NCBI GenBank assembly: GCA_041495285.1
Contig: JBGQCJ010000001.1
Coordinates: forward strand, 73,182 to 137,181
DNA length: 64,000 nucleotides
From: Verrucomicrobiia bacterium
GTDB taxonomy: Bacteria > Verrucomicrobiota > Verrucomicrobiia > Palsa-1439
Reading direction: 5' to 3'
Shown: positions 14 through 49,290 of the stretch, in pieces
Layout: each line of letters begins with the position of its first letter
Numbering within the stretch: the first letter of the stretch is position 1
Made by a program: the position numbers and the translations under genes
The notes under the pieces: generated by a model
Seen by the model: only the letters and a program-made list of their open reading frames with translations
Told to the model about the DNA's origin: nothing
Databases searched by the model: none

Positions 14-595
14 GTGGCGGTGCCGGTACGGTGTAGCTACGCGCCCGAACAAGTGCGCCGGTCGCACTTCCGTCCCATCGCTGACTTCGTACGGATCACG
101 ACGATGAACATCGGGCTGGTGTTGCAATCGTGGCTCGTGCCGGCGGAGTTACGACGGACGTGGTCGCTGGGTGGACACAAGACACTCCGGGAAGCTATCC
201 GTGAGTTCTTCACCGAACACGCCCACGAACCGGCGCGACTGGCCGGTGCAGTCGGCTTGGGATTGTTTTGTGGCATCGCGCCGATCTGGGGTTTCCAAAT
301 GCTCGCGACCGCGACGCTGGCGCATTTGTGGCGGTTGAACAAGGCTATTGCGTTGCTCGCCAGTAATGTTTCCATGCCGGCGCTCACGCCGTTCATCGTG
401 TACGGCGGGTTGGTGCTCGGGCATTGGTTGCTAACGGGACAACGGCTGGAGTTAGGGCCGCATGACATCACGTGGGCGCACACGTTTGAGTATTTCTGGA
501 GCTGGTTTTTCGGGAGCGTAGTGTTGGCGGTAATCGTGGCGGCGCTGGGGACGATCGTGACGTATGGCGTGGCGCGGTTGGTGAAGCGAAAATGA
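14..595 (+). CDS. DUF2062-like small membrane protein; start uncertain (GTG at 14 or ATG near 104); frame is open to window edge
   Basis: The 193-aa ORF has hydrophobic helices and a '...LNKAIALLASNVSMPALTPFIVYGG...' segment typical of DUF2062. DUF2062 proteins are common members of aryl-polyene clusters. Its stop overlaps the next start (ATGA). Confidence 0.55.
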   Translation: MAVPVRCSYAPEQVRRSHFRPIADFVRITTMNIGLVLQSWLVPAELRRTWSLGGHKTLREAIREFFTEHAHEPARLAGAVGLGLFCGIAPIWGFQMLATATLAHLWRLNKAIALLASNVSMPALTPFIVYGGLVLGHWLLTGQRLELGPHDITWAHTFEYFWSWFFGSVVLAVIVAALGTIVTYGVARLVKRK

Positions 596-3500
596 AACCC
601 GATCTCTACACACGATTTTATCTGTGGCTCGTGGCGCATCGGCGCTGGGTGCTGGGCCTCACGCTGTTGATCGCGGCGGTGAGTGTCGTCATTTCGCTGC
701 GCATTGATATGGACGAGGATCTTCTCGCCATGCTGCCGGAACGCGATCCGCTCGTGGACGAGTATCGCTACGTGCTGCGCAAATTCCGCCAGATTGACCG
801 GGTCTATCTCGACGTGGGCATCACGACCGGAGATGCCGACACGCTGGCGGCAGCCGCCGGCGCGGTTTTCTCCGCGCTATCAACGAATACCGCCTACGTG
901 CGGATCATGTATCGCTTCGAGGTCAGCGGACAGCAGAAGGTGATTCAGTACCTGACCGGCGCGTTGCCGAATCTGTTCACTGACGAGGATGCCCGGTCGC
1001 TCGCGCCGAAACTCGAGCCCGCCGCTGTGCGCGATTATCTCACCGCGATGCGCCGCAAACTGGCCGGGCCGGAAGGCATGGTGCTCAAGGATGTCGTCGC
1101 CGCCGATCCGGTCGGCATGAGCGGATTGGTCGTGGCCAAAGTGTTGCCGCTGCAAACTGGGTTCGGCGACACGCAAATCGTGGACGGTCGCATCACGAGT
1201 GGCGATGGCCGGCACGTTCTGCTCATGGCCGAGCCGAAATTCCGCTCATCAAATTCCCGCGACAGCGAAGCGCTCGTGAAAGACTTATTGCGGACGGCGC
1301 GCGAAGTGGAAGGTCATTTCCCCGGCGTTCACGTCGCCATCACCGGTGGGCATCGGATGACGGTGGACAACGCGACGATCATCAAGGCCGACGCGACGCG
1401 CTGCATTTCCCTCGGGATGGGAGCAATGTTGATTCTGTGTCTGACAGCATTTCGGCGGCGCTGGCTGGCCGTCCTGGCATTTTTGCCATCGTTATTCGGC
1501 ACGCTCATCGCGGGCGTGGTGCTCGCGCTCTACTGGCCGCACCTCTCCGCCATCGCGACCGGCTTCGCCAGCATCGCCATCGGCATCACGGTGGATTACG
1601 CGATCTATATTATTTATCACCTCGACAACGCCGCGAGTTTTGACCGCGAGTCCGTGGGCCGGCATCTGGGGCGGCTGGTGTTGCCAATCAGCATCGGTGC
1701 GCTGACGACTATCGCAGCGTTCGTGGTCATGGCGACTTCGCCGATGCACGGCTACCAGCAACTGGGCGTGTTTGGCGCGGTTGGCGTCGTGTTTTCGGCG
1801 GCGTTCGCACTTGTGATCCTGCCGTTGCTCGTACCGATGGAGAAAACTACCGGGCAACCGCCGCTGTGGCTGACACAGTTGATGGAGAAATTTCAAACCT
1901 GGCAATCGAACTGGCGATCCTGCGTGCTGATCGCCATGCTCGTGATGACTGTCGTGACCGCGTTCGGTGTACGACGGCTGCGGTTTGAGGGCGACGTCGC
2001 CAAGCTGAACGGCATCACCGAATCCACGCGGAGCGATGAGGCGTTGATCAACCAAACTTGGGGCAGTGCGCTCGGAATGACATTGGTCGTGGCGCGCGGA
2101 GCAACACCGGAGGACGCCTTGGCGCTAAATGATCGCGCCGCGCAAGCGCTCGCCCACGATCCGAATGTGGCTGCGGTGTATTCGCTCGCAGCGGTTTGTC
2201 CATCGAAGGCGACGCAGGTGGCGAACATCCGGCGCTGGCGCGAATTTTGGACGCCGGCACGACGTATGACATTGCGCGAGACGTTGCAGCAGGTCGGCGG
2301 CGAACTTGGTTTTCGCGCCGAAGCATTCGCGAAGTTTTGGCAAAGCGTCGAGGGCGACCCGGCAATGCTGACGCTGGAGGCTTTTCGCGGCACGCCATTG
2401 GATCAGGCATTGAGTGAGCGCGTCGCGCTGGGCGCGGACGACAACGCGGTGAGTACGTTGGTCAAATTGAAGGATCGCGCGAACGTCGGCAAACTGCGGC
2501 AGGCGTTGCCCGGCCTGATTGTGCTCGACCACAAGGCATTCGCCGATCATATCGCCGGGCTGGCGAAAAGCGGACTAAGCCAGTTCGCGTTGTGGACGGC
2601 CATCGTCGTGGCCGCGATCTTGTATCTGACGCTCGCGTCCATTGAACTGGCCGCGGTGACGCTGCTGCCGCTGGCGTTCGGTTTGTTGTGGACGTTCGGG
2701 GCGATGGGCTGGTTGGGATTGAAGATTGACCTGATGAACAGCGTGTTCGTCATCTTCATCATCGGCGTCGGCGAGGATTACAGCGTGTTCCTCGTTACAA
2801 ACAAATTGGACGAATGGCGCGGACGACCGCAACGGACCGCGGCCACCACTGCGTCGGTATTGATCTCCGCCTCGACGACGATCTTTGGCTTCGGCGTGCT
2901 GGTGCTGGCCAATCACCCGGTGTTTTTCTCGATGGGCACGACGGTGTTGCTCGGCATGAGTTTCGCATTCCTCGCCACCCTGATTTTGACACCGCTGTGC
3001 ATGGACTTATTGCTGTTCGCCGACCCGCCGCGCGGCGCACCCCGGTGGTGGCATTTACTCGGCACGCTGTGGGGCGGAACACACCTCTTCCTCGGTCAAC
3101 TGGGTCTGTGGGTGTCTCGTCCGTTTGTCTCGCGCGATCGTTCCCGGCAGATGACGCAAGGGGCAACGCGCTTATTGGTGAATTGGTTTCCGTTCGGCAA
3201 ACTGGATTGGATCGATACCGGTGCCGAAACATTTCAGAAGCCAGCCATCCTCATCAGCAATCATCAATCCGCCGTGGACGTGCTCATCATCAAAGCACTG
3301 TCCGGCAACATCCGCATGACGATCAAGAAACGCGTCTGGGACACGCCGATCCTCGGCCTGACCGCGAAGATGAACGGTGACTTGTTAGTCGACAACGAAT
3401 CCGACGCCACCTTGGCCCGCTGCCGGCAAGCCGTGACGGAGGGCGCGAGTGTCCACTTCTTCGTCGAAGGTACGCGCTCGCGCACCGGCGACCTGCAACG

Positions 3501-4419
3501 TTTTCGCCTTGGCGCGTTTCAACTGGCCAGCGAATCCCGGCAAGACGTGTTACCGGTCTTGCTCTGCGACACCAATACCGCCATGCCGCGCGACGCGTAC
3601 TGGTTCGAGTTGTACCGGGCTGTGGTGCGCGCGTTGCCGCGCGTGACGCCACAGACTTTCGACTACAACCTCGGCGCGCGCGCCTTGATGAAACATTGCG
3701 AGGCGCTGATGCACGACGCATTGCAGACCGAATTGGATCGCGTGAACTCGTCGCCGGTATTGCGCCGCAAAGTAGCACGGCTCTACCGGTATCAAGGCAA
3801 GTGGGTCGAGCAATTCGTTTACTGGAAGATGCGCACCGACCCGTTCTTTGCGGTGCTCGACAAGACCGTGCCGCGTCAGGGTTTCATCCTCGATCTCGGT
3901 TGCGGCTATGGCCTGGCGAGTCACTGGCTAGTCCATAGCAATCTCGACCGGCAACTGCTTGGCGTGGATTACGACGCCGATAAAATTCGCACCGCCCAAC
4001 GCACCGCCCCGCGCCACGACCGGCTCCGCTTCGAGCAAGCCGACCTGCTCACGTGGGATTATCTTGCCTGCGACGCCATTCTCTTATTCGACGTGCTCCA
4101 CTACTGGACGCCCGATAAACAAGAACTCATCCTCACCAAAGCCCGGCAAGCGTTGCGCCCGGGCGGACGCTTGATTCTCCGCGATGCCGCACGCGCCGAA
4201 ACGAAGGCGCACGGGAACGTCGCGTTCTGGGAGAAACTCGCGACCGGCATCGGCCACAACAAGACCGTCGAGGGACTGCATTTCCAGAGCGAGCCGGAAC
4301 TGCGCGCCGCGTTGCAGCGTGCCGGCTTCGAGGACATCCAACTCGTGCCGTCCGCCGGCAACGATTCCAACATCCTGCTCACCGCGTCGGTCGCTGCGCC
4401 GCAATGCTCTGGCGGATAA
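592..4419 (+). CDS. Three-domain fusion: MMPL/RND-type exporter (about 12 TM) + lysophospholipid acyltransferase domain (HX4D 'NHQSAVD', 'FVEGTRS') + class I SAM methyltransferase domain ('ILDLGCGYG')
   Basis: Single 1275-aa ORF. The N-terminal ~830 aa carry two hydrophobic bundles separated by a periplasmic loop (MMPL/RND architecture). Residues ~880-1050 carry PlsC-type acyltransferase motifs. The C-terminal ~220 aa have the SAM-binding motif I. Confidence 0.75.
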   Translation: MKPDLYTRFYLWLVAHRRWVLGLTLLIAAVSVVISLRIDMDEDLLAMLPERDPLVDEYRYVLRKFRQIDRVYLDVGITTGDADTLAAAAGAVFSALSTNTAYVRIMYRFEVSGQQKVIQYLTGALPNLFTDEDARSLAPKLEPAAVRDYLTAMRRKLAGPEGMVLKDVVAADPVGMSGLVVAKVLPLQTGFGDTQIVDGRITSGDGRHVLLMAEPKFRSSNSRDSEALVKDLLRTAREVEGHFPGVHVAITGGHRMTVDNATIIKADATRCISLGMGAMLILCLTAFRRRWLAVLAFLPSLFGTLIAGVVLALYWPHLSAIATGFASIAIGITVDYAIYIIYHLDNAASFDRESVGRHLGRLVLPISIGALTTIAAFVVMATSPMHGYQQLGVFGAVGVVFSAAFALVILPLLVPMEKTTGQPPLWLTQLMEKFQTWQSNWRSCVLIAMLVMTVVTAFGVRRLRFEGDVAKLNGITESTRSDEALINQTWGSALGMTLVVARGATPEDALALNDRAAQALAHDPNVAAVYSLAAVCPSKATQVANIRRWREFWTPARRMTLRETLQQVGGELGFRAEAFAKFWQSVEGDPAMLTLEAFRGTPLDQALSERVALGADDNAVSTLVKLKDRANVGKLRQALPGLIVLDHKAFADHIAGLAKSGLSQFALWTAIVVAAILYLTLASIELAAVTLLPLAFGLLWTFGAMGWLGLKIDLMNSVFVIFIIGVGEDYSVFLVTNKLDEWRGRPQRTAATTASVLISASTTIFGFGVLVLANHPVFFSMGTTVLLGMSFAFLATLILTPLCMDLLLFADPPRGAPRWWHLLGTLWGGTHLFLGQLGLWVSRPFVSRDRSRQMTQGATRLLVNWFPFGKLDWIDTGAETFQKPAILISNHQSAVDVLIIKALSGNIRMTIKKRVWDTPILGLTAKMNGDLLVDNESDATLARCRQAVTEGASVHFFVEGTRSRTGDLQRFRLGAFQLASESRQDVLPVLLCDTNTAMPRDAYWFELYRAVVRALPRVTPQTFDYNLGARALMKHCEALMHDALQTELDRVNSSPVLRRKVARLYRYQGKWVEQFVYWKMRTDPFFAVLDKTVPRQGFILDLGCGYGLASHWLVHSNLDRQLLGVDYDADKIRTAQRTAPRHDRLRFEQADLLTWDYLACDAILLFDVLHYWTPDKQELILTKARQALRPGGRLILRDAARAETKAHGNVAFWEKLATGIGHNKTVEGLHFQSEPELRAALQRAGFEDIQLVPSAGNDSNILLTASVAAPQCSGG

Positions 4420-5044
4420 GTTCGAGGAACTCTTCGCGAGGCAGGGGCAGATAGGTGTCCGTCGCAATCGGTTCGCCGACGTGTACCTCGACCTTGCGCA
4501 GCCCCGTGATGAGGTGAAACCGTCCGGTCTTGGTAGAGACAAGCTGCATGTTCTCGATGAACACCGGCACAATTGGCACGCGCGCTCGCTGCGCAATGTA
4601 GTACAGGCCGGGCTGGCACGGGGCAACATGCACGCCGTCGCCGCGCGTGCCCTCGGGAAAAACCACCAACTGGAACCGGTCACTGAGACGGCCAAACGCC
4701 TCCAACTCACGGATGCGATCGGGATTGATTTTTCCTCGTTCCAGCAAGAAGCCGATCCGGCTGCTCAACGCTCGTCTGATCCAGGAAACCTGCCAAACGG
4801 CTTTGTCCCCCAGCACCAGAATCGGATAGCACCCGCACCGCCAAAACAACGCGCCCAACAGGATCGTGTCCAGCAGACTGACGTGATTGGCCACAAACAG
4901 ATGACGCTGCTCACGACGCAACCGTTCGAGGCCATGCGTCCGTCGCAGGTACGCCAGCGCAAACGTGTAATAGCTGCTCGCACCCAGCAGCGCTTGAATC
5001 AACACCAAAGCCCGCGATATCTGGCTTGAATTTGTTGGCTCCAT
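4379..5044 (-). CDS. 1-acyl-sn-glycerol-3-phosphate (lysophospholipid) acyltransferase family protein
   Basis: 221 aa with HX4D motif 'NHVSLLD' and 'FPEGTRG' motif of PlsC-like acyltransferases. Its 3' end is convergent with and overlaps the 592..4419 gene by about 40 nt. Confidence 0.75.
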   Translation of the reverse strand: MEPTNSSQISRALVLIQALLGASSYYTFALAYLRRTHGLERLRREQRHLFVANHVSLLDTILLGALFWRCGCYPILVLGDKAVWQVSWIRRALSSRIGFLLERGKINPDRIRELEAFGRLSDRFQLVVFPEGTRGDGVHVAPCQPGLYYIAQRARVPIVPVFIENMQLVSTKTGRFHLITGLRKVEVHVGEPIATDTYLPLPREEFLELIRQSIAAQRPTR

Positions 5045-5048
5045 CGAA

Positions 5049-6707
5049 TCAGTTCGAGTGGCCGGCTTGTTCTAACCACTTTTCCAGTTCGCGCTTCTCT
5101 TTCAGAAACGCTGGGTGCGCGGCCAGCGCCGCCGCAAACGCGCGCGCCGCCTCCTGACGCTGACCGAGCGCCAACAGAGCACGACCTCGCAACGCCGCAT
5201 TCTGGTAGAAACCGGGGTTCAACGCTTCCGCCTTGTCCGCAAGCGTCAGCGCGGACGGCGCATCGTTGCTCTTCAAAGCGCGATGGCCATCGTCCAGACA
5301 TTGCTTGGCCTGCTTCGCCCGCTCGAATTCACCCGATGCCAGTGTCGCGTCGGGCGACACGGTTCGGGCGGGCAATTCGTGATCGAAATCCTGCACATCG
5401 AACGCGACGAACTTGCCAATCTGGTGCGGCGGCGAAGCCGCCCAAAAAATGCCGTCAGTCAAATCCATCACCGTGGCGTGTGTGGCGATGAACGCGTTCA
5501 GCGAGGCGCGGTGGCCGTTGCCGGCAAACGCGCCGCCGGACAGGTTGCGGTCGCGGAGCAATTCAGCAGCGTGCGGAGCGTCGATTGTGCCGCGCGCACC
5601 CTGAAGCAGTTCTGTCATGCGCGTGAAGCGTGAAACCGACGTGGCTTCGTCAATGTAAACCTTGTTCCGCTCGGCATCCTTCAAGCCGGAAGTTTGGAAA
5701 TGATTCGCGCAAACGATGGTGTCGCCTTCTGGTTCGCGCACCTGCGTTACGTCGGGTGTTTTTTCCACGACCACAAGTTTTCCGTCCGCCCGGCTGCCCA
5801 CCAGCCAGAGTGTTGAGACAAACACCTTGGCGCGGCGGATGATTTCCAGCGCCTCGGTGAGGTTGTGCGCCTTTTGCAAAACATCGCGCGCCACCATCGC
5901 CACGGGGGTGGCGATTTCGCCTGGCAAACTGGACGGCGCGCCGTTGATCGTGACGGAGACGCCCGCGCGGTTCATTCCCGAAACCACTCCCGCCATGCTG
6001 GCCCACGATAGTGAAATGAACGGAATGCCGTCATCCGGTTCGCACATGATGACGACACGGTCGCGGCTGAAAACCTCGGCGGCTTCCCAATCGAAGTTGC
6101 GCCCGGTGATCAGATGTCCGACGGCCGTCGCGCCGCCCCACGCGCCGAACGCGGTGCAGCCCGCGCGCGCGACGAGCGGGTTGTCAATCATCATATAGGA
6201 AACGTCGTGCGCGGCGTGGTAGTTGAGCATCCGGTTATAGAAACTGCCGAGTTCCGGGTGAACGTCCGGGCAGCCGAGAATCACGCCATAAATCTGCTGG
6301 CGATCTTCCAGCGACACGAAATCGCCCAGATGCCGGTTGCGATAGATCACATACGCCCTGAGCACGTTCAGTTTCCACTGTTGCGACACGTAGCCGTGGA
6401 TCATTTCTAGGAATTCATTCTCCAGCGTGTGCATCTGCTCCTGCAACAACACGCCCGACGCGTAACCCATCTCGAACGGGCTGCCTTTGAGCCGCACGAC
6501 CAGCAATCCCTCGCGTCGGCTCGCCCACGATTTGCCGAGCCACGTTTTCCCATCGTGCGATTCCGGCTTGAGTTGCATGATCGCCACGTCGCGCGGCAGC
6601 GGCGGCGGCTTGGCCGTCCAATGCCGCAACAAGCACACCGCCGCGATCCAGGCGATCAGCCCAAGCAAAATCGCCCCAAACAGAATTCTCTTGAGCCATT
6701 TCTTCAC
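5049..6707 (-). CDS. Peptidase C45 / acyl-CoA:6-aminopenicillanic-acid acyltransferase family protein with C-terminal TPR repeats; N-terminal signal/TM
   Basis: 552 aa. The central region has the 'GCTAF' self-processing Cys context of the C45/IAT-like family. The C-terminal 'ALNPGFYQNAALRGRALLALGQRQEAARAFAAALAAHP' is TPR-like. It has a hydrophobic N-terminus. Confidence 0.55.
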   Translation of the reverse strand: MKKWLKRILFGAILLGLIAWIAAVCLLRHWTAKPPPLPRDVAIMQLKPESHDGKTWLGKSWASRREGLLVVRLKGSPFEMGYASGVLLQEQMHTLENEFLEMIHGYVSQQWKLNVLRAYVIYRNRHLGDFVSLEDRQQIYGVILGCPDVHPELGSFYNRMLNYHAAHDVSYMMIDNPLVARAGCTAFGAWGGATAVGHLITGRNFDWEAAEVFSRDRVVIMCEPDDGIPFISLSWASMAGVVSGMNRAGVSVTINGAPSSLPGEIATPVAMVARDVLQKAHNLTEALEIIRRAKVFVSTLWLVGSRADGKLVVVEKTPDVTQVREPEGDTIVCANHFQTSGLKDAERNKVYIDEATSVSRFTRMTELLQGARGTIDAPHAAELLRDRNLSGGAFAGNGHRASLNAFIATHATVMDLTDGIFWAASPPHQIGKFVAFDVQDFDHELPARTVSPDATLASGEFERAKQAKQCLDDGHRALKSNDAPSALTLADKAEALNPGFYQNAALRGRALLALGQRQEAARAFAAALAAHPAFLKEKRELEKWLEQAGHSN

Positions 6708-7078
6708 GGATTTCGTTCCAAAAGTAAAAGCGTCTCCCCCGCCGGCTGTCCGCCGACGGAAAAACTGGCCCGCGCCTCAATCGTGCCGTTCTTTTCCGAC
6801 AATTTCAAATCCACTCGCACGATCTCGGCCGGTAGGATCGGCCGCCGAAACTTCGCCTTGCAAACCTCGCGGATTGACAACGAACAATCGAGCGCCCATT
6901 CCGCCGCCGCGCGCGTCATCTCCAGTTGAAACACGCCGGGCAGCAACGGCCGCGTCGGGAAATGACCCGCAAACGTCGGATCGTCCGCGCCGAACCGGAA
7001 CTCAATCACCACCGTGCCGTCCGCCTCACGTCGCGGGCCACTGATTTGCGCGGCGGCAATCGAATCGCGCATCGTCAT
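6704..7078 (-). CDS. FabA/FabZ-like hotdog 3-hydroxyacyl-ACP dehydratase (APE dehydratase-like)
   Basis: 124 aa with 'FAGHFPTRPLLPGV' (HxxxGxxxxP dehydratase motif). Its stop overlaps the upstream gene start. Confidence 0.65.
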   Translation of the reverse strand: MTMRDSIAAAQISGPRREADGTVVIEFRFGADDPTFAGHFPTRPLLPGVFQLEMTRAAAEWALDCSLSIREVCKAKFRRPILPAEIVRVDLKLSEKNGTIEARASFSVGGQPAGETLLLLERNP

Positions 7079-7539
7079 GGTGTCGCCTTGCGCGTCTCGT
7101 CAAACAACTCCGGCGGCTGCGGACCGGGCTTGGTCTCCACCGTTCGCACTTCCAGCGTGTAGCCGCGCCGGACGAGCATCACCGGCGACGCCTCGGCCAA
7201 AACGCGCTCCATGTCAGCCGCAACGTTGCGTCGAATCCAAGCCGGCCGAAACGCCCGACCTGATCGCATCACGTGGACTGCGCCGTCGCGTTTCACCAGA
7301 ACGTCCGCCAGCACTGCGCCGAAATTCTCCGTGACGATGAGCCTCTTGCCCCACGCTGCGCTCAGCGCGAGATAGCCGTTCAAGGTGAATTGCTGCCCGT
7401 GCACCGTCAACACGGCGCGTTGTGTTACCAAGGCATCGGCGGGAAACAAAGACGGCAAGGCTTGGGGTGGCGGAAGCGTTGTCGCGCAGCCGACCACCAG
7501 CAACAGCCACGGGAAAAAATACAAATTACGGCGCATTGC
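7075..7539 (-). CDS. Putative lipoprotein (DUF3261-like), signal peptide with lipobox 'VVGCAT'
   Basis: Small ORF with a lipoprotein signal, in the position where DUF3261 lipoproteins occur in APE clusters. The start could be the upstream ATG at 7587. Confidence 0.4.
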   Translation of the reverse strand, partial: AMRRNLYFFPWLLLVVGCATTLPPPQALPSLFPADALVTQRAVLTVHGQQFTLNGYLALSAAWGKRLIVTENFGAVLADVLVKRDGAVHVMRSGRAFRPAWIRRNVAADMERVLAEASPVMLVRRGYTLEVRTVETKPGPQPPELFDETRKATP

Positions 7540-8209
7540 CCACGGCCGCCTTGATCGCGGTGATATCCAGCGGTTTGGCTTGATCAAACGTGCCGGGCGG
7601 AAACTTCACCTCGCGCCGTTCCCGCCGAAATATGATCCGCGTCAGGTCGCCGTTGGGTTCGTTCATTACCACTTCGCGCGTCGCGGAAAAATCCGGCTCC
7701 ATCTTGATTTCCAGCGACGCCAGCATCTCGCGCACGTTGGCGTCCTTCGGCATCAACGTCACGACCGCCACGCTGCCGGTAGCCACGGAGATTGTGTAAT
7801 CGCTGGTCAACGCATCGAGTTTGCCCTGGTGCATCAAAGTCATTTGCTCCATCACACGCCTGAGCATTTGCGGAAACCCCAGCTTCAATTTCTTCCAGTC
7901 GCCGTCCGTGCGCTCGAATTGCGCGACGGATTTGTGGTTGCCGAGCAAAATGGATTGATACGGCGCGGTCGTCTCCCAGCGAATCTGGTCGGGACGTTCG
8001 ATCAACATCACCCCTTCGCTCTTTAACGGCTCGGCGAACAATTTCAACTGTCGTTCCTGCGTGAACTCCAGATACACCGAGCCAAGCGACGACATCTTGC
8101 GCTGCAAGTCTTGCAATACCGGGCGCGGGTCGGCTACCGGCTGCAACGGCGGTTCGGCAACCGCCGCCATCGCGATCATCAACCACGCCATGCCAGCTAA
8201 TCTTTTCAT
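7526..8209 (-). CDS. LolA-like outer-membrane lipoprotein carrier family protein
   Basis: 227 aa with a signal peptide, similar in size and pattern to LolA/LppX-fold carriers. It sits in an APE-type cluster context (ApeL-like position). Confidence 0.55.
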   Translation of the reverse strand: MKRLAGMAWLMIAMAAVAEPPLQPVADPRPVLQDLQRKMSSLGSVYLEFTQERQLKLFAEPLKSEGVMLIERPDQIRWETTAPYQSILLGNHKSVAQFERTDGDWKKLKLGFPQMLRRVMEQMTLMHQGKLDALTSDYTISVATGSVAVVTLMPKDANVREMLASLEIKMEPDFSATREVVMNEPNGDLTRIIFRRERREVKFPPGTFDQAKPLDITAIKAAVGNAP

Positions 8210-8973
8210 GTCAGCATCCGATCCAACCGCACCACTTCATACCCCAGCGCCCGCACTGTTTCCAAGAGTGTTTTCACTGTCGCCACCAACCGCTCGGCGG
8301 AGATGTTGCCGTCGTGCAACAAGATGATCGCGCCCGGCTCAAGCCGCCGGGTGATCCGCGCCACGATCCGTTCCGGCTCGGTCAGCTTCGTGTCCAACCC
8401 GCGCGCGCTCCAGCCCACCACCGTCAACCCCAGCGCCCGCGCCGCGCGAAACACCCGGGGATTCGACAAGCCCATCGGTGGCCGAAACCATCGCGGGGTC
8501 ACTCCCGTGGCCTGCTCAATGACCGCCTGTGTTTTCGCCAATTCCGCTTTCAGGCGGGCAACCGTAAAGAAATTCGTCGCGTTGTTGTGCGCGTACGAAT
8601 GATTCTCCAGCAAATGTCCCTCGCGCACGATCCGCGCCGCCAATTCCGGATGCGCGGCCACTTGTTCGCCAACACAAAAGAACGCCGCCTCGACGCCCGC
8701 CTCCCGCAGCAGTTCCAACAACGCCGGTGTCGAGCGCGCATCCGGCCCGTCGTCGAACGTCAACGCCACGCACCGCCGCGAGCCGGCCCCGCGACACACA
8801 AACGGACCGAACAACCGCAGTTGTGGAATCGCCACGCCGAGTCCGGTCACCGTCAGATGCGCCACGACCACCGCGCCGAGCAGCGCCGCGTTGCCCGACG
8901 CCAGCGCCAGCGCACCGAGCAACACCGCGCCCGTCGTCACCACATGAAACCGGCTCAGGGTTGAACGCAACAT
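8206..8973 (-). CDS. Polysaccharide deacetylase (NodB homology domain) with N-terminal TM
   Basis: 'ALTFDDGPDARSTPALLELLREAGVEAAFFCVGEQ...HLLENHSYAHN' are NodB motifs. The longer ORF (to 9183) overlaps the KS-CLF 3' end, so the internal Met at 8973 is preferred. Confidence 0.7.
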   Translation of the reverse strand: MLRSTLSRFHVVTTGAVLLGALALASGNAALLGAVVVAHLTVTGLGVAIPQLRLFGPFVCRGAGSRRCVALTFDDGPDARSTPALLELLREAGVEAAFFCVGEQVAAHPELAARIVREGHLLENHSYAHNNATNFFTVARLKAELAKTQAVIEQATGVTPRWFRPPMGLSNPRVFRAARALGLTVVGWSARGLDTKLTEPERIVARITRRLEPGAIILLHDGNISAERLVATVKTLLETVRALGYEVVRLDRMLT

Positions 8974-11147
8974 ATCGCTTTCGCGCCGCGCGCCGCCAAC
9001 GTGTACAACAACACCCCGCGCCGGCCGCGACGCACCAAGTCCACCGCGACGGAAAAACCGAACGCTGAGGCCGCGTGAAATTCCCCGCACAGTTGCTTGT
9101 AGGTTTGATGTTCCAGCGTCCGACCGGCGCGAGCCGACAACGCGGCGGCGACTGACGCGTACATCAGATCCAGCGCCGGCCAACCTTTTGCACCACTCAG
9201 CACCACGTCAACCGTCGCCAGATCAACTGCTGCCGCGATCCAATCAGCTTCCTGCTCCGCATCAAACGGTCGGCGATACCGGCCAAGGCGCAGCGCCGTG
9301 ACGCGGGCCAACGGCGCCGCGACAGTTTCCGCACGCACGAGACTGGCCACAGTTGCTCCTTCGCCGGGGCGTGTCTGCTCCGTCCACAACCCCCATCGTT
9401 TGCCGATGCTTAACGGGTACTTGTTCAGCTCATCCACGGCGCCGACCAGCGCAACATCGGCTTCTCCAGTTGCCAGTTGACTCATTCCCTGCCACAGGGC
9501 GCTCTCGAAGGAAATCTCACCGGTCGTTGGCGCCGAGTTCATGCCCCGCGCTCCCAGGTCAATGGCGATCTGCGCGGCGGCGGCGTTGTGGACCGAGTTG
9601 GGAAAGCGTGCCGGCATTGGCTCGCGTTCGTCCTTGGAAATCAAATTCTCCAAGAACGCCGCGGCGTCCTCCAGGAAACCGAGGCCGGTGCCGACCGCCA
9701 CGGCCAGTCGCTGCGACGGGTCGGGCGTGTGGCTGCGCCGGGCGGCCACCAGCGCCATTTGCACGAGCCGGCTTAACCGGCGACGCTGGTTGGAAGTGAG
9801 CAGCGCGGCATCCGCCAGCGCGCCACAACTGTGAACCGTCACTGTTCCCGCGGGCAGAGGCGGCTCGATTTCCCGGACGCCAACCGAGCCGGGTCCGATC
9901 ACGCCCACGCCGGTGACAGCCGCCGGTCCCGGTCGCGGCGCGCGCGTGAATGCCGGTGTTTCAGGCCGGGAAAAAATCAGTACCGCGTTGTTGCCGCCAA
10001 ACCCAAATGAGTTGCTCATCACGTGCATCAACGACGCGCCCCGCAGCGCGGTGACCGGCTCCAGACCGATGGCAGGATCGAGCGTGGTGAAGCCGGGGTT
10101 GGGTGGAATTTCCTGACGCCGCAACGCTTCGACGCACACCACGGCTTCGATTGCGCCGCTTGCGGCCAGAGCATGCCCGAAAAATCCTTTTGTGCTGGAG
10201 ACCGCCGGCACGCGGTTGCCGAACACTGTTTTCAACGCTTTCGATTCCGCCAGGTCGTTGTCGCGCGTGCCCGTGCCGTGCGCGTTCACGTAATGGATGG
10301 CTGTCGGCTCCAACCCCGCGCGACGCAACGCGGCCTGCATCGCGGCCACGGCACCGGCGCCCTCGGGATGCGGCGCGGTTGAATGATATGCGTCGCAGCT
10401 TGCGCCCCAACCGCTCAAGCGCGCCAGAACTTTCGCCCCGCGTCGTTGCGCTGTCTCTTCGGCTTCGAGCACCAGCAGCGCCGCGCCCTCACCGAGGCTC
10501 ATCCCGGCGCGGTTCGCATCAAACGGCCGGCAACCCGCGTCGTCCACCAGCAGCAACGAGTGAAACCCACCCCAGGTCATGCGCGATAACGAATCAGCGC
10601 CGCCCGCCAACATCACGTCCGCTTCTCCAGACTGAATCAGTTCCGCCGCCGTCGCGATGGCCAGCGCGCTCGACGAGCACGCCGTCGCCACCGTCAGGCT
10701 CGGCCCCAACAACCCAAAATCGTCGGCGATCCAATCGACAGTGGAAGTGCATTCGTGGAACCGCGTTGGTCGCGCCAGCATCCGGCCGTGTTTGATCAGG
10801 TTCGTAAGAAATCGCTCACTGTCAAACGAGCCACCGACCGAACTGCCCAGCACGATGCCGGACCGCTCGGCGCAGCGTTGCGTATTGATGCCCGCAGAAA
10901 CGATGGCTTGACGGACGGCCAACCACCCGAGCCGATCACTGCGCGAGCCATGCGACGGCGCGCCCAGCGCGGTCAGGTTGCGTTGGACTTCGCCAGCGAG
11001 GACCTGGCCGTAACGCGGCGATTGAAACAGGCTCAACGGCTTTAGCCCGCTGGTACCGGCGGCGATGGCGTTCCAGACCTCGTCCACACCGCAGCCCGGC
11101 GCGGCCACGATGCCTAGACCGGTGATGACTGGGAAACGCGCCGCCAC
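8955..11147 (-). CDS. Beta-ketoacyl synthase fused to a chain-length-factor-like (Cys-less) KS domain
   Basis: 730 aa. The N-terminal half has the active-site 'ATACSSSALAI' and the His-His region ('VNAHGTGT'). The C-terminal half is KS-fold but has 'NSAPTTGEIS' in place of the active Cys. Its start overlaps the ACP stop. Confidence 0.8.
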   Translation of the reverse strand: MAARFPVITGLGIVAAPGCGVDEVWNAIAAGTSGLKPLSLFQSPRYGQVLAGEVQRNLTALGAPSHGSRSDRLGWLAVRQAIVSAGINTQRCAERSGIVLGSSVGGSFDSERFLTNLIKHGRMLARPTRFHECTSTVDWIADDFGLLGPSLTVATACSSSALAIATAAELIQSGEADVMLAGGADSLSRMTWGGFHSLLLVDDAGCRPFDANRAGMSLGEGAALLVLEAEETAQRRGAKVLARLSGWGASCDAYHSTAPHPEGAGAVAAMQAALRRAGLEPTAIHYVNAHGTGTRDNDLAESKALKTVFGNRVPAVSSTKGFFGHALAASGAIEAVVCVEALRRQEIPPNPGFTTLDPAIGLEPVTALRGASLMHVMSNSFGFGGNNAVLIFSRPETPAFTRAPRPGPAAVTGVGVIGPGSVGVREIEPPLPAGTVTVHSCGALADAALLTSNQRRRLSRLVQMALVAARRSHTPDPSQRLAVAVGTGLGFLEDAAAFLENLISKDEREPMPARFPNSVHNAAAAQIAIDLGARGMNSAPTTGEISFESALWQGMSQLATGEADVALVGAVDELNKYPLSIGKRWGLWTEQTRPGEGATVASLVRAETVAAPLARVTALRLGRYRRPFDAEQEADWIAAAVDLATVDVVLSGAKGWPALDLMYASVAAALSARAGRTLEHQTYKQLCGEFHAASAFGFSVAVDLVRRGRRGVLLYTLAARGAKAICCVQP

Positions 11148-11404
11148 TAGGAAGATCGCTTGGCTTGAATGAAGGCCGCCAGCGCGCGCACCGAGCTGAA
11201 CGCGGGACGCCCCTCTTCGATGTCTTTGATCACGATGCCGTAATGTTTCTCCAGCATCACGACCAACTCCAGCGCATCGATCGAATCCAAACCCAGTCCC
11301 GCGCCGAACAACGGCGCATCGTCGTCAATCTGACCCGGGGTGATGTCCTGCAGTTTCAATGACTCAATGATTCTCGTCTTCAATTCGTTGGCTAACACGT
11401 CCAT
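11147..11404 (-). CDS. Acyl carrier protein
   Basis: 85 aa with 'GLGLDSIDALELV', a phosphopantetheine attachment Ser in a DSL-like motif. Confidence 0.8.
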   Translation of the reverse strand: MDVLANELKTRIIESLKLQDITPGQIDDDAPLFGAGLGLDSIDALELVVMLEKHYGIVIKDIEEGRPAFSSVRALAAFIQAKRSS

Positions 11405-11410
11405 GGCTAT

Positions 11411-11998
11411 TCAACTCGCAGATTTTCGGGCGCAGATTACCGCACACAGCGACTCCATGTCACGGTCATTTTCCCGCAACACATGCCGCCCGTCGCTGCC
11501 GCGCTTGAGCAATAACGCGCAGGCCCGTGCGGCGGCCGGTGTCTGGATTATCTCCGCGGCTGCGGCGCTAACAACGTCGCAGGAAACGCACAAGCACGCC
11601 TCCGCTTCGCCCCGGCGAATCCAATCGCCGGCTTCGGCCAGCACGGCGTCGCCCCTGCCCACGAAACATAGGTTCGGTCCGGTCAGCTGGTAGCGGATCG
11701 CGATCTCGCCGATGGCCGCGCTGGGCAACGTGTAAGCAAACAACGTCGGACTCGGCCCGCCGACAGCGTCCCGTCCGTTCCAATACTCGACATCTGTGGA
11801 CAGCGATCCCACGCGCGCCGCGAGGCAGATACCGATGCGCTCGCGTGGCAGCGTGTCGAAGTCGAGGCCCAGAGATTCGACGGCCAGCAGCGCCAACTGA
11901 CTCGCCAAATCGAGTCGCCCAAAGCGCTGCCCCAACCGCGCCGCGCTCACGTCGGCATCGGTGACCATGCTGGCGGCTGTGACAAAAATATTATCCAT
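11411..11998 (-). CDS. Small KS N-terminal-like protein (stand-alone chain-length-factor/ApeC-like)
   Basis: 195 aa. 'LFAYTLPSAAIGEIAIRYQLTGPN' resembles the KS N-terminal region ('AAGHVSI..GL.GPN'). There is no catalytic Cys. The size is similar to APE CLF partners. Confidence 0.45.
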   Translation of the reverse strand: MDNIFVTAASMVTDADVSAARLGQRFGRLDLASQLALLAVESLGLDFDTLPRERIGICLAARVGSLSTDVEYWNGRDAVGGPSPTLFAYTLPSAAIGEIAIRYQLTGPNLCFVGRGDAVLAEAGDWIRRGEAEACLCVSCDVVSAAAAEIIQTPAAARACALLLKRGSDGRHVLRENDRDMESLCAVICARKSAS

Positions 11999-13127
11999 GA
12001 CCGAGAATGAGTGCGCCGTTGATGCCGCCGAATCCGGTATTGAGTTTCAAAATGTGATCGAGCCGGGCGACGGGACGTGGTTCATGCACGAGGCTGGCCG
12101 GTGCGCCATCCGCTGCCACGCTCAGTCGCGGCGTGCCGGGCAACAACCGGTCTTGCATCGCCAACACGCACAAGATCGTTTCGATGACGCCGGCTGCGCC
12201 GAGCGTGTGGCCGAGCATCCCTTTTGAAGCGCTGACAGGCGGACCGGCGTCGCCGAAAACCGTGTGCAGCGCGAGCGATTCCATCGCGTCGTTGTACGGT
12301 GTGCCGGTGCCGTGGGCGTTGACGTAGTCAATGTCCTGCGGCTCCAGTTGCGCAGCGGCAAGCGCGCGCTGAATCGCCAACGCCAGACCAGAACCATCGC
12401 GCGACGGGCCGGTAGGATGGTTGGCGTCGTTGCTGCCGCCCCAGCCTCGAATAATCGTTGCTCCTACGCCGCGCGCCAACACCAGCGCCGCGCCGGCTTC
12501 GCCGGGACTCAATCCGCAGCGGTCGCGGTCGAAGGGACGACAGCCGGTCGGATCGAGCGCCTTCAACGCGCTAAAACCGGCTACGACAAACGCGGATAGA
12601 TGATCCACCCCAACCACGAGCACGGCGTCCGCCGCGCCGCGCTGGATCAATTTTGCTCCCTGCTGGATCGCGATCAGCCCGGACACGCAGGCGACGGAAA
12701 CGCATTGGACCGGGCCAGCCGCGCCGTGCGCCGCCGCCAAATCCACGGCGAGTAGATCCGCCTGCAAATGCCGGCGGGCCGCGTCAGAACACGGGCGATG
12801 TTCGGTCAGACGTTCCAGCGCTTCGATGTTAGCCTTGGTGGTCGAGAGCACCAACCCAATCCGCGCCGCCGGTATCGCGGGAAGAGCTTTGCCGGCTTGG
12901 CGGCGCGCTTCCTGTAACGCTTCCGCCGCGAGCCGGTAGGCGGGATCGTCGTGGTCGCCGTTCAACGGCGCGACGCCGAAGAGGCTGGGCTGGTAATGCG
13001 GACGATCAAACCGGGCACAGGGACGCAAGCCGCTGGAGTTTTCACGCAACGCCGTCCGCAACGCGACCACGCCCTGCCCCACGGCGGTGATCGCGCCGCA
13101 ACCAGCAATCGAAACCACATCACGCAT
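11991..13127 (-). CDS. Beta-ketoacyl-ACP synthase (FabF/FabB-like KS)
   Basis: 378 aa with active Cys 'SVACVSGLIAI', 'VNAHGTGTPYND' and 'KGMLGHTLGAAG' (Cys-His-His triad regions). Confidence 0.85.
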   Translation of the reverse strand: MRDVVSIAGCGAITAVGQGVVALRTALRENSSGLRPCARFDRPHYQPSLFGVAPLNGDHDDPAYRLAAEALQEARRQAGKALPAIPAARIGLVLSTTKANIEALERLTEHRPCSDAARRHLQADLLAVDLAAAHGAAGPVQCVSVACVSGLIAIQQGAKLIQRGAADAVLVVGVDHLSAFVVAGFSALKALDPTGCRPFDRDRCGLSPGEAGAALVLARGVGATIIRGWGGSNDANHPTGPSRDGSGLALAIQRALAAAQLEPQDIDYVNAHGTGTPYNDAMESLALHTVFGDAGPPVSASKGMLGHTLGAAGVIETILCVLAMQDRLLPGTPRLSVAADGAPASLVHEPRPVARLDHILKLNTGFGGINGALILGHG

Positions 13128-15204: not shown

Positions 15205-15277
15205 CCTTGACTGAAGTGCCGGCGATGTTAACCTTCGTGTCAAGGCAGGTCAATGCGCCTGTCACCCCGTTTGCGAG

Positions 15278-19395: not shown

Positions 19396-19476
19396 GAATG
19401 AAGCGCAAGTCTTATTGCCGGGCACTTGCTTGTTCAAGTCGTTTGTTGTAGAACCGGCATTCGATTAGCAAGCTAC

Positions 19477-24435: not shown

Positions 24436-24441
24436 CCAATC

Positions 24442-28971: not shown

Positions 28972-29032
28972 TCTTGAAAAATGCCGGGACGGAGAATAGC
29001 GCACGGCCACAGAAAGGCAATCATGCGGTAGC

Positions 29033-47079: not shown

Positions 47080-49290
<2,211 letters not shown>

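What the first reader, a model, noticed from the sequence alone, without database searches (positions are those of the whole stretch)
592..4419. 1275-aa fusion of MMPL exporter, lysophospholipid acyltransferase and SAM methyltransferase
In described APE clusters the exporter, acyltransferase and methyltransferase are separate proteins. Here they form one uninterrupted ORF with intact HX4D and 'LDLGCGYG' motifs. This would physically couple acylation, methylation and export of the polyene lipid. I am not aware of this tri-domain architecture being described.
Basis: seen in the sequence. Interest (0 to 1): 0.6.

Follow-up and report, generated by a model that had tools for sequence, protein, structure and literature searches.

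The report
FlxU-type exporter–acyltransferase–methyltransferase fusion protein
The 1275-residue three-domain protein is real and strongly conserved, but it belongs to a fusion family already catalogued in flexirubin pigment gene clusters, so the architecture is not new, although nobody has tested what it does.

Summary
The ORF at 592-4419 is real. It has 1275 codons and no stops. Pfam finds MMPL, a PlsC-type acyltransferase and a class I SAM methyltransferase, and the HQSAVD, EGTR and LDLGCGYG motifs are intact.

It is not a frameshift or assembly artefact. At least 120 full-length Verrucomicrobiota orthologues (64-85% identity) share the architecture. So do at least 101 more 50%-identity clusters (22-43% identity); named members come from Bacteroidota and Planctomycetota. 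The domain junctions are gap-free and as conserved as the domains.

The architecture is not undescribed. The protein matches a Chitinophaga protein end to end (E 2e-152). [quoted passage not shown] It corresponds to FlxU / Fjoh_1078 of the canonical flexirubin gene clusters.

The surrounding cluster is flexirubin-type. It encodes an aromatic amino-acid lyase, CoA ligase, halogenase, KS/CLF, ApeI-like dehydratase, LolA, deacetylase, C45 and GT2-DUF2062.

The fused methyltransferase is not the aryl-polyene ring methyltransferase. A 50%-identical ApeB orthologue is encoded separately at 22246-23313.

Verdict: a genuine new member, from a different phylum, of a catalogued but experimentally uncharacterised family. 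Interest is low to moderate.

The parts
14..595 (+). 3' part of the upstream GT2-DUF2062 gene (FlxT-like). The window starts inside it, and its stop overlaps the ATG of the fusion.
   Evidence: DUF2062 1.9e-22. The full 374-aa GT2+DUF2062 gene is seen in L001. It is 39% identical to Chitinophaga FlxT and 39% to the ApeJ N-terminal half. ATGA overlap.
592..4419 (+). FlxU-type trifunctional ORF, 1275 aa: MMPL exporter, PlsC-like acyltransferase, class I SAM methyltransferase.
592..3045 (+). RND/MMPL transporter module (residues 1-818). Inferred topology 1+5+1+5 TM segments with two ~210-230-residue periplasmic loops. Asp-Tyr pairs in TM4 (nt 1594-1599) and TM10 (nt 2776-2781).
   Evidence: Pfam MMPL. 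HpnN/HAE3/actII NCBIfam hits, all below cutoff. Hydropathy. HpnN 5KHN 1.3e-12. D729 invariant and D335 78/103.
3046..3183 (+). Two amphipathic/hydrophobic helices (residues 819-864) that match the N-terminal two-helix membrane anchor of PlsC. They link TM12 to the acyltransferase core.
   Evidence: AF2 helices H180-206 and H209-225 of the 640-1275 fragment. Foldseek aligns 237-239 columns of the 241-residue 5KYM chain, TM 0.78-0.79. Kyte-Doolittle mean is below the 1.5 TM threshold.
3187..3741 (+). PlsC/LPLAT acyltransferase core with HX4D (nt 3262-3279) and EGTR (nt 3466-3477).
   Evidence: PF01553 3.4e-18. 5KYM 1.3e-6 by sequence. N890, H891 and R962 invariant, D896 101/103. ApeD E 2e-15.
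3742..4416 (+). Class I SAM-dependent methyltransferase domain with motif I LDLGCGYG (nt 3889-3912). A family distinct from ApeB/FlxJ.
   Evidence: Methyltransf_25/12/11. G1107 invariant; D1101, G1103, G1105, D1126 and D1167 at 96-101 of 103. Generic small-molecule MTase folds. ApeB E 8e-4. The cluster's own ApeB-like MTase E 1.5.
4379..5044 (-). Stand-alone second PlsC-type acyltransferase. It is convergent and overlaps the fusion's 3' end by 41 nt.
   Evidence: PF01553 1.6e-18. Only E 8e-4 to the fused AT. Conserved position in 8 Verrucomicrobial loci.
5049..6707 (-). C45/AAT Ntn-hydrolase-type acyltransferase (FlxW-like).
   Evidence: PF03417, NF040521 3e-55. 34% identical to Chitinophaga FlxW.
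6704..7078 (-). ApeI-like dehydratase (FlxS/ApeI).
   Evidence: PF22818 1.2e-9. tblastn hits to FlxS and ApeI.
7526..8209 (-). LolA-like periplasmic lipid carrier (FlxQ/ApeL).
   Evidence: PF03548 8.7e-14. NF053544 LolA2_flexi 5.7e-23, below cutoff.
8206..9183 (-). Polysaccharide deacetylase (FlxP-like).
   Evidence: PF01522 3e-35. 42% identical to FlxP.
8955..11147 (-). Ketosynthase fused to a CLF-like domain (FlxN+FlxO / ApeO+ApeC equivalents).
   Evidence: ketoacyl-synt, Ketoacyl-synt_C, Ketoacyl-synt_2. tblastn hits.
11150..11404 (-). Acyl carrier protein (ApeE-like).
   Evidence: PP-binding. 54% identical to ApeE, 51% to the Chitinophaga ACP.
11991..13127 (-). Second ketosynthase.
   Evidence: tblastn hits.
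13515..14477 (-). LpxL-type lipid A biosynthesis acyltransferase (FlxE; equals the C-terminal half of E. coli ApeJ).
   Evidence: PF03279 3.4e-24. ApeJ residues 247-556, 30% identity.
14479..15243 (-). FabG-type ketoreductase (FlxB/ApeQ).
   Evidence: adh_short_C2 7e-59. 48% identical to ApeQ.
17893..19437 (-). Amine-oxidase / phytoene-desaturase-like flavoprotein (FlxV-like).
   Evidence: PF01593. Weak tblastn hit to FlxV.
19426..21045 (+). Aromatic amino-acid ammonia-lyase. In the flexirubin pathway this role is the tyrosine ammonia-lyase FlxA (starter unit). No FlxA sequence was compared here.
   Evidence: PF00221 2.5e-160. The FlxA role is taken from PMC3992019 (abstract).
21035..22249 (+). 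FAD-dependent halogenase (FlxK-like).
   Evidence: Trp_halogenase 7e-27. 48% identical to FlxK.
22246..23313 (+). Separate ApeB/FlxJ-type methyltransferase, the canonical aryl-ring methyltransferase of the pathway.
   Evidence: Dimerisation2-like + Methyltransf_2. 54% identical to FlxJ (E 4e-140) and 50% to E. coli ApeB (E 5e-117).

Best explanation
The ORF encodes a FlxU-type trifunctional inner-membrane protein. It belongs to a flexirubin-type aryl-polyene pigment gene cluster in a Verrucomicrobiota (Pedosphaera/Limisphaerales-like) metagenome-assembled genome.

Residues 1-818 form an RND/MMPL lipid transporter. It is inferred to have 12 TM segments and has Asp-Tyr pairs in TM4 and TM10. Its closest solved relative is the hopanoid shuttle HpnN.

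Behind TM12 lie two domains. I infer they sit on the cytoplasmic face, because the standard RND topology ends in the cytoplasm. The first is a PlsC-like monotopic acyltransferase with its two-helix membrane anchor. The second is a class I SAM methyltransferase.

Proposed mechanism (inferred):
- At the inner leaflet, the acyltransferase domain moves an ACP-bound acyl chain onto a lyso-(glyco)lipid acceptor. The chain may be the aryl-polyene or a companion fatty acyl. This is the role assigned to ApeD in aryl-polyene lipid synthesis.
- The methyltransferase adds a methyl group at a position not yet identified. It is not the ring methylation, which the separate ApeB/FlxJ orthologue supplies.
- The MMPL module, driven by proton-motive force, then extracts the finished pigment lipid. 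It hands the lipid to the LolA-like periplasmic carrier for delivery to the outer membrane.

Shown here: gene integrity, domain identity, motif conservation, family membership and cluster context.

Inferred: substrates, order of steps, orientation of the soluble domains, and whether substrates are channelled between domains.
For: Domains and motifs.

Family-wide conservation across 103 sequences at 22-70% identity: D729, H775, P776, N890, H891, R962 and G1107 are invariant. D896, E959, G960, D1101, G1103, G1105, D1126 and D1167 are at least 93% conserved.

Junctions are gap-free and as conserved as the catalytic cores. The AF2 model of residues 640-1275 is compact and confident (pLDDT 87.9, pTM 0.84).

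The acyltransferase superposes on T. maritima PlsC over almost its whole length, including the N-terminal helices (TM 0.78-0.79, rmsd 2.9 A).

MMPL module: HpnN 1.3e-12 and a 1+5+1+5 hydropathy pattern.

Orthology to FlxU: collinear end-to-end alignment with Chitinophaga sp. YR573 WP_089782844.1, named 'trifunctional MMPL family transporter/...', E 2e-152. PMC12968099 Table 3 equates that product with FlxU and Fjoh_1078.

Shared gene blocks with the Chitinophaga flx cluster: KS-CLF, deacetylase, LolA and ApeI-like dehydratase in the same order, plus GT2/DUF2062 directly upstream of the fusion. The same context recurs in the 11 Verrucomicrobial loci that carry the intact fusion and have flanking DNA.

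Published roles for the separate E. coli/Xenorhabdus proteins: ApeD acylates lyso-PG, ApeM exports, ApeL/ApeN are Lol-like. ApeD's best match in the window is the fused acyltransferase (E 1e-14).
Against: No member of the family has been studied experimentally. Literature searches found only cluster tables and the label 'predicted exporter'.

From my own knowledge, flexirubin carries a single SAM-derived methyl group, on the ring. The separate FlxJ/ApeB enzyme would account for that, so the fused methyltransferase has no known product.

The cytoplasmic placement of the soluble domains rests on the standard RND topology and the PlsC analogy, not on geometry.

darA/darB were not looked for, so the end product may not be a flexirubin in the strict sense.

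Similarity to E. coli ApeM is weak (21-23% identity, E 6e-9 by BLASTP; 4e-13 by tblastn).

An acyltransferase-less MMPL-methyltransferase variant exists. The three activities are therefore not obligatorily coupled.
Confidence: 0.75

Rival explanations
1. The long ORF is an artefact. A frameshift or mis-assembly has joined two or three adjacent genes (exporter, acyltransferase, methyltransferase).
For: In E. coli-type ape clusters the three functions are separate genes. In proteobacterial xanthomonadin-type clusters an acyltransferase gene lies next to the exporter gene. The window comes from a MAG.
Against: 120 independent full-length homologues of 1266-1323 aa come from NCBI, JGI, ENA and Logan assemblies. 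At least 101 more 50%-identity clusters of 1205-1305 aa exist. Complete genomes of cultured Chitinophaga, Mucilaginibacter and Panacibacter carry the same collinear protein. The junctions show no gaps and high conservation.
Confidence: 0.01
2. One reading: the protein is simply ApeM + ApeD + ApeB of the aryl-polyene pathway joined together. The fused methyltransferase would then carry out the known methylation of the aryl head group.
For: The MMPL and acyltransferase parts are the window's best matches to ApeM and ApeD. All three domain types occur in ape clusters.
Against: A bona fide ApeB/FlxJ orthologue is encoded separately at 22246-23313 (50% identity to ApeB, E 5e-117; 54% to FlxJ). It has the Dimerisation2-like + Methyltransf_2 architecture. 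The fused domain matches ApeB only at E 8e-4 over 114 residues. It matches the cluster's own ApeB-like enzyme at E 1.5. Chitinophaga also keeps FlxJ alongside FlxU.
Confidence: 0.1
3. The protein is a lipid-remodelling or recycling machine rather than a pigment exporter. By analogy with LplT-Aas fusions (a lysophospholipid flippase fused to an acyltransferase), the MMPL module would deliver a lysolipid or glycolipid acceptor to the acyltransferase. The product would then be methylated. Pigment export would depend on other proteins.
For: The acyltransferase domain hits NF006386/PRK08633 'acyl-[ACP]--phospholipid O-acyltransferase' at 1.3e-12. From my own knowledge, that family includes transporter-acyltransferase fusions. 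F. johnsoniae flexirubin clusters also carry ABC-2 transporters that have been implicated in pigment localisation.
Against: The gene sits inside the pigment cluster in three phyla, next to a LolA-like carrier. Its closest solved relative, HpnN, is an outward lipid shuttle. ApeM is genetically required for the APE-lipid in E. coli.
Confidence: 0.1
4. The C-terminal methyltransferase fold is a SAM-binding regulatory or structural module with no catalytic role.
For: No methyl group in the known flexirubin structure needs it (my own knowledge). It is retained even when the acyltransferase is lost, which would suit a module that controls the pump.
Against: The cofactor-binding motif is highly conserved, and so are residues outside it: D1167-x-L-H-Y, R1197 and E1214. 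That pattern is typical of an active site. The fold matches active small-molecule methyltransferases.
Confidence: 0.05

Closest known systems
FlxU (Chitinophaga pinensis flx cluster, Cpin_1853-1877) / Fjoh_1078 (Flavobacterium johnsoniae). [quoted passage not shown] WP_089782844.1, WP_119406298.1.
   Same: Same three domains in the same order and at the same length (1275 vs 1284 aa), collinear end to end (E 2e-152). Same catalytic motifs. Same immediate upstream neighbour (GT2-DUF2062) and the same flexirubin-type cluster content.
   Different: Only 26% identical and from another phylum (Verrucomicrobiota). TM4 carries Asp-Tyr, where the aligned Chitinophaga YR573 protein has Asn-Tyr; 18 of 103 aligned family members have Asn there. 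The cluster is rearranged into two convergent operons. KS and CLF are fused, and there is an extra stand-alone PlsC-type acyltransferase. [quoted passage not shown]
ApeM, ApeD and ApeB of the E. coli CFT073 / Xenorhabdus doucetiae aryl-polyene (APE-lipid) cluster.
   Same: An RND exporter and a lysophospholipid acyltransferase in an aryl-polyene lipid pathway with a LolA-like carrier. ApeD and ApeM are homologous to the fused modules (E 2e-15, 6e-9).
   Different: They are separate genes in E. coli, at only 21-24% identity. ApeB corresponds to a different, separately encoded gene in this window (22246-23313), not to the fused methyltransferase. E. coli instead fuses GT2 with an LpxL-like acyltransferase (ApeJ); these two are separate genes here.
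HpnN hopanoid transporter (Burkholderia multivorans, PDB 5KHN/5KHS), in the HAE3/MMPL branch of the RND superfamily.
   Same: Closest solved relative of the transporter module (E 1.3e-12; TIGR03480 2.2e-38). It is an inner-membrane shuttle that moves a hydrophobic lipid towards the outer membrane.
   Different: No fused enzymes. The scores are far below the HpnN equivalog cutoffs (131.8 vs 751.85 bits), so this is not an HpnN orthologue.
[quoted passage not shown]
   Same: Same fold, including the N-terminal two-helix membrane anchor (TM 0.78-0.79, rmsd 2.9 A). HX4D and EGTR motifs are present.
   Different: 20% identity. Here the anchor helices follow TM12 of a transporter directly. The acceptor and donor substrates are unknown.
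Transporter-acyltransferase fusions of the LplT-Aas type (NF006386/PRK08633), and the non-covalent coupling of MmpL transporters to lipid biosynthetic enzymes in mycobacteria. Both are recalled from my own knowledge.
   Same: The concept of a membrane lipid transporter physically tied to an acyltransferase acting on the transported lipid. The acyltransferase domain hits NF006386 at 1.3e-12.
   Different: A different transporter superfamily (MFS) and the opposite direction of flow in LplT-Aas. The mycobacterial cases are protein-protein complexes, not single polypeptides, and neither includes a methyltransferase.

Membership tests
FlxU-type trifunctional MMPL/LPLAT/methyltransferase (RefSeq-named family) | Single polypeptide of about 1280 aa with MMPL, PF01553 acyltransferase and class I SAM methyltransferase domains, in that order. 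| tested here: met
   Pfam hits above gathering score for all three, in order. Length 1275 aa.
FlxU-type trifunctional MMPL/LPLAT/methyltransferase (RefSeq-named family) | End-to-end homology to a member that carries the name. | tested here: met
   BLASTP against Chitinophaga sp. YR573 WP_089782844.1 (P0376): query 5-1263 aligned to subject 4-1278, 26% identity, E 2e-152.
FlxU-type trifunctional MMPL/LPLAT/methyltransferase (RefSeq-named family) | Catalytic residues of all three modules conserved. | tested here: met
   The invariant or near-invariant columns of the 103-sequence alignment are all present in the query: D729, H891, D896, E959-G-T-R962, D1101, G1103, G1105, G1107.
Flexirubin-type (flx) biosynthetic gene cluster | Cluster context: GT2-DUF2062 directly upstream, plus LolA, polysaccharide deacetylase, KS/CLF, ApeI-like dehydratase, C45/AAT, LpxL-like acyltransferase, ketoreductase, aromatic amino-acid lyase, CoA ligase, halogenase and FlxJ methyltransferase. 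| tested here: met
   The context is conserved across the 11 Verrucomicrobial loci that carry the intact fusion and have flanking DNA.
Flexirubin-type (flx) biosynthetic gene cluster | Dialkylresorcinol genes darA/darB, and a KOH-reactive flexirubin pigment. | not tested
In C. pinensis these genes lie at a distant locus. The pigment phenotype cannot be tested in silico.
RND superfamily, MMPL/HAE3-like lipid transporters | 12 TM segments in a 1+5+1+5 arrangement, two large periplasmic loops, and charged proton-relay residues in TM4 and TM10. | tested here: met
   Hydropathy segments at 20-38, 269-414, 442-460 and 671-809, with loops at 39-268 and 461-670. Individual TM segments within the two multi-helix blocks were not separately resolved. 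D335-Y336 and D729-Y730 are present. Pfam MMPL 3e-23.
RND superfamily, named subfamilies (HpnN, HAE3 TIGR00921, actII MMPL TIGR00833) | Score above the curated NCBIfam cutoff. | tested here: not met
   131.8 vs 751.85, 124 vs 351.9 and 86.3 vs 874.7 bits. The protein is related to these subfamilies but is a member of none.
PlsC/LPLAT acyltransferases (PF01553) | HX4D and (F/V)xEGTR motifs, and a PlsC fold with an N-terminal membrane-anchoring helix pair. | tested here: met
   HQSAVD and EGTR motifs. Foldseek hit to 5KYM, TM 0.78-0.79 over 237-239 of 241 residues. Actual 1-acyl-G3P specificity was not shown; it scores below the TIGR00530 cutoff (70.2 vs 102.95).
Class I SAM-dependent methyltransferases | Rossmann-like fold with motif I (D/E)xGxGxG and an acidic residue at the end of beta-2. 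| tested here: met
   LDLGCGYG; D1126 conserved in 101/103. The fold matches CmoA, CysG(N-16), RedM and SgvM. Catalysis and substrate are not testable with these tools.
ApeB/FlxJ aryl-ring methyltransferase (for the fused C-terminal domain) | Orthology to ApeB: Dimerisation2-like + Methyltransf_2 architecture and high similarity. | tested here: not met
   E 8e-4 to E. coli ApeB over 114 residues. E 1.5 to the window's own ApeB orthologue. No dimerisation domain.

The most novel reading that the evidence does not exclude
The covalent and rigidly conserved link between an RND lipid pump, a PlsC-like acyltransferase and a methyltransferase of a family other than ApeB reflects true substrate channelling. 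The pigment lipid would be acylated, then methylated at a position absent from all published flexirubin and APE-lipid structures (for example on the anchor head group or a carboxyl). It would then be fed directly into the exporter. If so, the native membrane form of flexirubin-type pigments is still chemically unknown. FlxU would also be the first RND transporter shown to be fused to the enzymes that make its own substrate.
Probability: 0.3. Interest if true: 0.55.

Novelty: new member of a known kind. Interest (0 to 1): 0.3.

Why it matters
As an architecture it adds nothing new. The fusion sits in the textbook flexirubin clusters and already carries a RefSeq product name.

Its value is as a Rosetta-stone observation. 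At least 101 diverged 50%-identity clusters, with named members from three phyla, tie an RND/MMPL lipid pump to an acyltransferase and to a methyltransferase that is not the known ring methyltransferase. That argues that the final tailoring of aryl-polyene/flexirubin lipids happens at the exporter. It also argues that one SAM-dependent step in this very widespread pigment pathway is still unassigned.

The Verrucomicrobial copies extend the family, and flexirubin-type clusters, beyond Bacteroidota.

Tried and rejected
- The full-length protein exceeds the 1200-aa limit of the representative search and of structure prediction. I used residues 640-1275 instead.
- A profile search with the 103-sequence alignment returned only the same Verrucomicrobial proteins and gave no new taxonomy. 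A single-sequence search with the medoid of the largest distant clade solved this.
I scanned eight clade representatives instead.
- The first cluster look-up gave an organism name for only 1 of 10 clusters.
- Literature searches found no functional study of the fusion. [quoted passage not shown]
- Rejected: frameshift artefact.
- Rejected: equivalence of the fused methyltransferase with ApeB.
- Rejected: membership of the HpnN, HAE3 or actII subfamilies (all below cutoff).

Full report
**Observation.** The window holds an uninterrupted ORF from ATG 592 to the stop at 4417-4419, 1275 codons. Its ATG overlaps the TGA of the upstream gene (ATGA at 592-595). Pfam-A finds three domain types above gathering score. 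They are MMPL (two stretches, 3e-23), Acyltransferase PF01553 (residues 877-989, 3.4e-18) and several class I SAM-methyltransferase models (residues 1094-1250, about 1e-14).

**Is the fusion real?** Yes. A search of 5.8 billion proteins returned at least 120 full-length homologues. They are 1266-1323 aa long, cover 99-100% of the query at 64-85% identity, and all carry the three Pfam families. They come from independent NCBI, JGI, ENA and Logan assemblies, and nearly all named ones are labelled Verrucomicrobiota, Verrucomicrobiae or Limisphaerales. In an alignment of these 121 sequences, the two junctions (residues 801-875 and 1026-1100) have no gaps. Their column identity is 72-88%, the same as the catalytic cores. 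These are therefore not flexible linkers, and a frameshift artefact is excluded. The exact protein is on record in NCBI assembly GCA_041488115.1, contig JBGPOQ010000063.1.

**How widespread is the architecture?** I ran a phmmer scan with residues 640-1275 against 1.84 billion representatives clustered at 50% identity. It gave 469 hits at E <= 1e-30. Among the best 150, 101 are 1205-1305 aa long. Their alignment typically covers the last MMPL half, the acyltransferase and most or all of the methyltransferase, at 26-42% identity. In an alignment of 103 such proteins (22-70% identity to the query), several residues are invariant. These are D729 (TM10 Asp-Tyr), H775-P776, N890-H891 (the HX4D histidine), R962 (EGTR), G974 and G1107 (SAM motif I). 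D896, E959, G960, D1101, G1103, G1105, D1126 and D1167 are at least 93% conserved. Representatives of every major clade carry all three Pfam domains. Named members include a Planctomycetota MAG, and Flavobacteriales and Bacteroidales MAGs. They also include many cultured Bacteroidota: Chitinophaga spp., Mucilaginibacter celer, Panacibacter and Ferruginibacter. A second class of about 1020-1056 aa has MMPL plus the same methyltransferase but lacks the acyltransferase.

[quoted passage not shown] Examples are WP_119406298.1, WP_295118285.1 and WP_089782844.1. The query aligns collinearly with WP_089782844.1 from residue 5 to 1263 (E 2e-152, 26% identity). A 2026 taxonomic paper lists this product as gene U of the Chitinophaga pinensis flexirubin cluster and as gene 78 of the Flavobacterium johnsoniae cluster (PMC12968099). 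Schöner et al. 2014 defined that cluster as flxA-flxY, Cpin_1853-1877. They called the last gene of the flxP-flxU block "a predicted exporter". They also noted that the region Fjoh_1078-Fjoh_1089 complements a flexirubin-negative mutant (PMC3992019). I found no paper that discusses or tests the three-domain nature.

**The surrounding cluster is flexirubin-type.** Upstream, seen on the source contig, lie AMP-ligase, ACP, a 405-aa unknown, an FAD oxidoreductase, a 290-aa unknown, a second AMP-ligase and GT2-DUF2062. The second AMP-ligase is 44% identical to FlxY, and GT2-DUF2062 is 39% identical to FlxT. The fusion follows directly.

Downstream, on the opposite strand, lie:
- a stand-alone PlsC-type acyltransferase
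- a C45/AAT protein (FlxW-like)
- an ApeI-like dehydratase
- a 170-aa unknown
- a LolA-like protein
- a polysaccharide deacetylase
- a fused KS-CLF
- an ACP
- a second KS
- a dehydratase
- an LpxL-like acyltransferase
- a FabG-type ketoreductase

Further on are an amine-oxidase-like flavoprotein, an aromatic amino-acid ammonia-lyase (2.5e-160) and a FlxK-like halogenase. An ApeB/FlxJ-type methyltransferase follows at 22246-23313. The block KS-CLF, deacetylase, LolA, unknown, ApeI-like dehydratase has the same order as flxN-flxS in Chitinophaga sp. YR573. There, GT2/DUF2062 also immediately precedes the fusion. The same organisation recurs in the 11 Verrucomicrobial loci that carry the intact fusion and have flanking DNA. 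I did not look for darA/darB.

**Relation to the E. coli-type APE cluster.** I retrieved the CFT073 ape cluster. ApeM matches the MMPL part weakly (23% identity, E 6e-9). ApeD matches the fused acyltransferase (23% identity, E 2e-15), and that is ApeD's best match in the window. ApeB matches the fused methyltransferase only marginally (E 8e-4 over 114 residues). By contrast, ApeB is 50% identical (E 5e-117) to the separate gene at 22246-23313. That gene has the ApeB/FlxJ architecture, Dimerisation2-like plus Methyltransf_2. The fused domain and this gene show no BLASTP similarity (E 1.5). The fused methyltransferase is an additional enzyme from another family. Fusion patterns also differ between lineages. 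E. coli ApeJ combines a GT2 with an LpxL-like acyltransferase, and these are two separate genes here.

**Anatomy and likely mechanism.** Hydropathy gives the RND pattern: TM1, a loop of about 230 residues, a five-helix block, TM7, a loop of about 210 residues, and a second five-helix block ending near residue 809. Asp-Tyr pairs sit in TM4 and TM10. The nearest solved relative is the hopanoid shuttle HpnN (1.3e-12). All NCBIfam RND subfamily scores are far below cutoff. The stretch 819-864 is not hydrophobic enough to be a TM helix.

An AlphaFold2 model of residues 640-1275 is confident and compact (pLDDT 87.9, pTM 0.84). It shows two helices in the 819-864 stretch, followed by an alpha/beta domain. 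That domain superposes on almost the whole of T. maritima PlsC, including its N-terminal helices (TM 0.78-0.79, rmsd 2.9 A). The C-terminal domain resembles generic small-molecule methyltransferases such as CmoA, CysG(N-16), RedM and SgvM. This gives no clue to the substrate.

RND proteins end in the cytoplasm, and acyl-ACP and SAM are cytoplasmic. I therefore infer that both enzymes sit at the inner leaflet next to the pump. The published model for APE-lipids has ApeD acylating a lysophosphatidylglycerol. ApeJ then adds a sugar and the polyene. ApeM with Lol-like proteins moves the product to the outer membrane.

By analogy, the proposed sequence for the FlxU-type protein is:
1. It acylates a lipid acceptor.
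2. It methylates the product at an unknown position.
3. It exports the product to the LolA-like carrier.

The substrates, the order of steps and any channelling between domains are inferred, not shown. From my own knowledge, flexirubin has only one SAM-derived methyl, on the ring. FlxJ would explain that one, so the fused methyltransferase currently has no known product.

**Verdict.** The architecture is neither rare nor undescribed. This is a Verrucomicrobial member, only 26% identical to the named Chitinophaga protein, of the FlxU family of trifunctional exporter/acyltransferase/methyltransferase proteins, inside a flexirubin-type cluster. The unassigned methyltransferase activity and the possible coupling of synthesis to export remain open and testable. 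These questions apply to the whole family and are better addressed in cultivable Bacteroidota. Interest 0.3; novelty: new member of a known kind.

Noticed in passing
window 47080-49290 (+): A 736-aa ORF combines a low-molecular-weight phosphatase domain (LMWPc), ribose-5-phosphate isomerase B (LacAB_rpiB) and serine hydroxymethyltransferase in one reading frame. It is another triple fusion in the same window.
   Followed up: no
window 8955-11147 (-): The ketosynthase and the CLF-like domain (Ketoacyl-synt_2) are fused in one 730-aa ORF. They are separate genes in Chitinophaga (FlxN/FlxO) and in E. coli (ApeO/ApeC). tblastn hits spanning about the full 2.2 kb occur in 7 Verrucomicrobial loci.
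   Followed up: partly
window 4379-4419; also L002, L003, L007, L010: The 3' end of the fusion and the 3' end of the convergent stand-alone PlsC-type acyltransferase (4379-5044, minus strand) overlap by 41 nt. Similar convergent overlaps, or near abutment, occur in related loci. The two acyltransferases are only distantly related (E 8e-4).
   Followed up: partly
L015 7553-10621; L016 2586-5192; P0122, P0139, P0146, P0159, P0163, P0164, P0167: A variant of the family of about 1020-1056 aa keeps the MMPL and methyltransferase domains but lacks the acyltransferase. In L015 only about 40 nt separate the MMPL and methyltransferase matches. The methyltransferase therefore stays tied to the pump even without the acyltransferase.
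   Followed up: partly
window 13515-14477 (-) and 14-595 (+); L019 8212-9888: E. coli ApeJ is a fusion of a GT2 with an LpxL-like acyltransferase. In this window the two halves are separate genes (GT2-DUF2062 and the Lip_A_acyltrans gene). Different lineages have fused different pairs of steps in the same pathway.
   Followed up: partly
window 27712-31196 (-): A second Trp-halogenase-like gene, a Na+/H+ exchanger and a small class I methyltransferase lie 4-8 kb beyond the ApeB-like gene. The Azoarcus arcuflavin cluster also contains a Na+/H+ antiporter gene, arcG. The pigment cluster may therefore extend to about 31 kb.
   Followed up: no
window 23473-26064 and 49693-51501: Restriction-modification-like genes are present. 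A DUF6602 protein lies next to an N6_N4 DNA methylase fused to an Mrr_cat nuclease domain. A separate 602-aa ORF carries HSDR_N_2, N6_Mtase and Eco57I domains, resembling a type IIG enzyme.
   Followed up: no
L001 4249-5466 and 6618-7490 (upstream of the window start): Two ORFs of 405 and 290 aa in the upstream operon have no Pfam hit. The 405-aa ORF is conserved in the Verrucomicrobial clusters. No counterpart was seen in the part of the Chitinophaga cluster that I examined.
   Followed up: no
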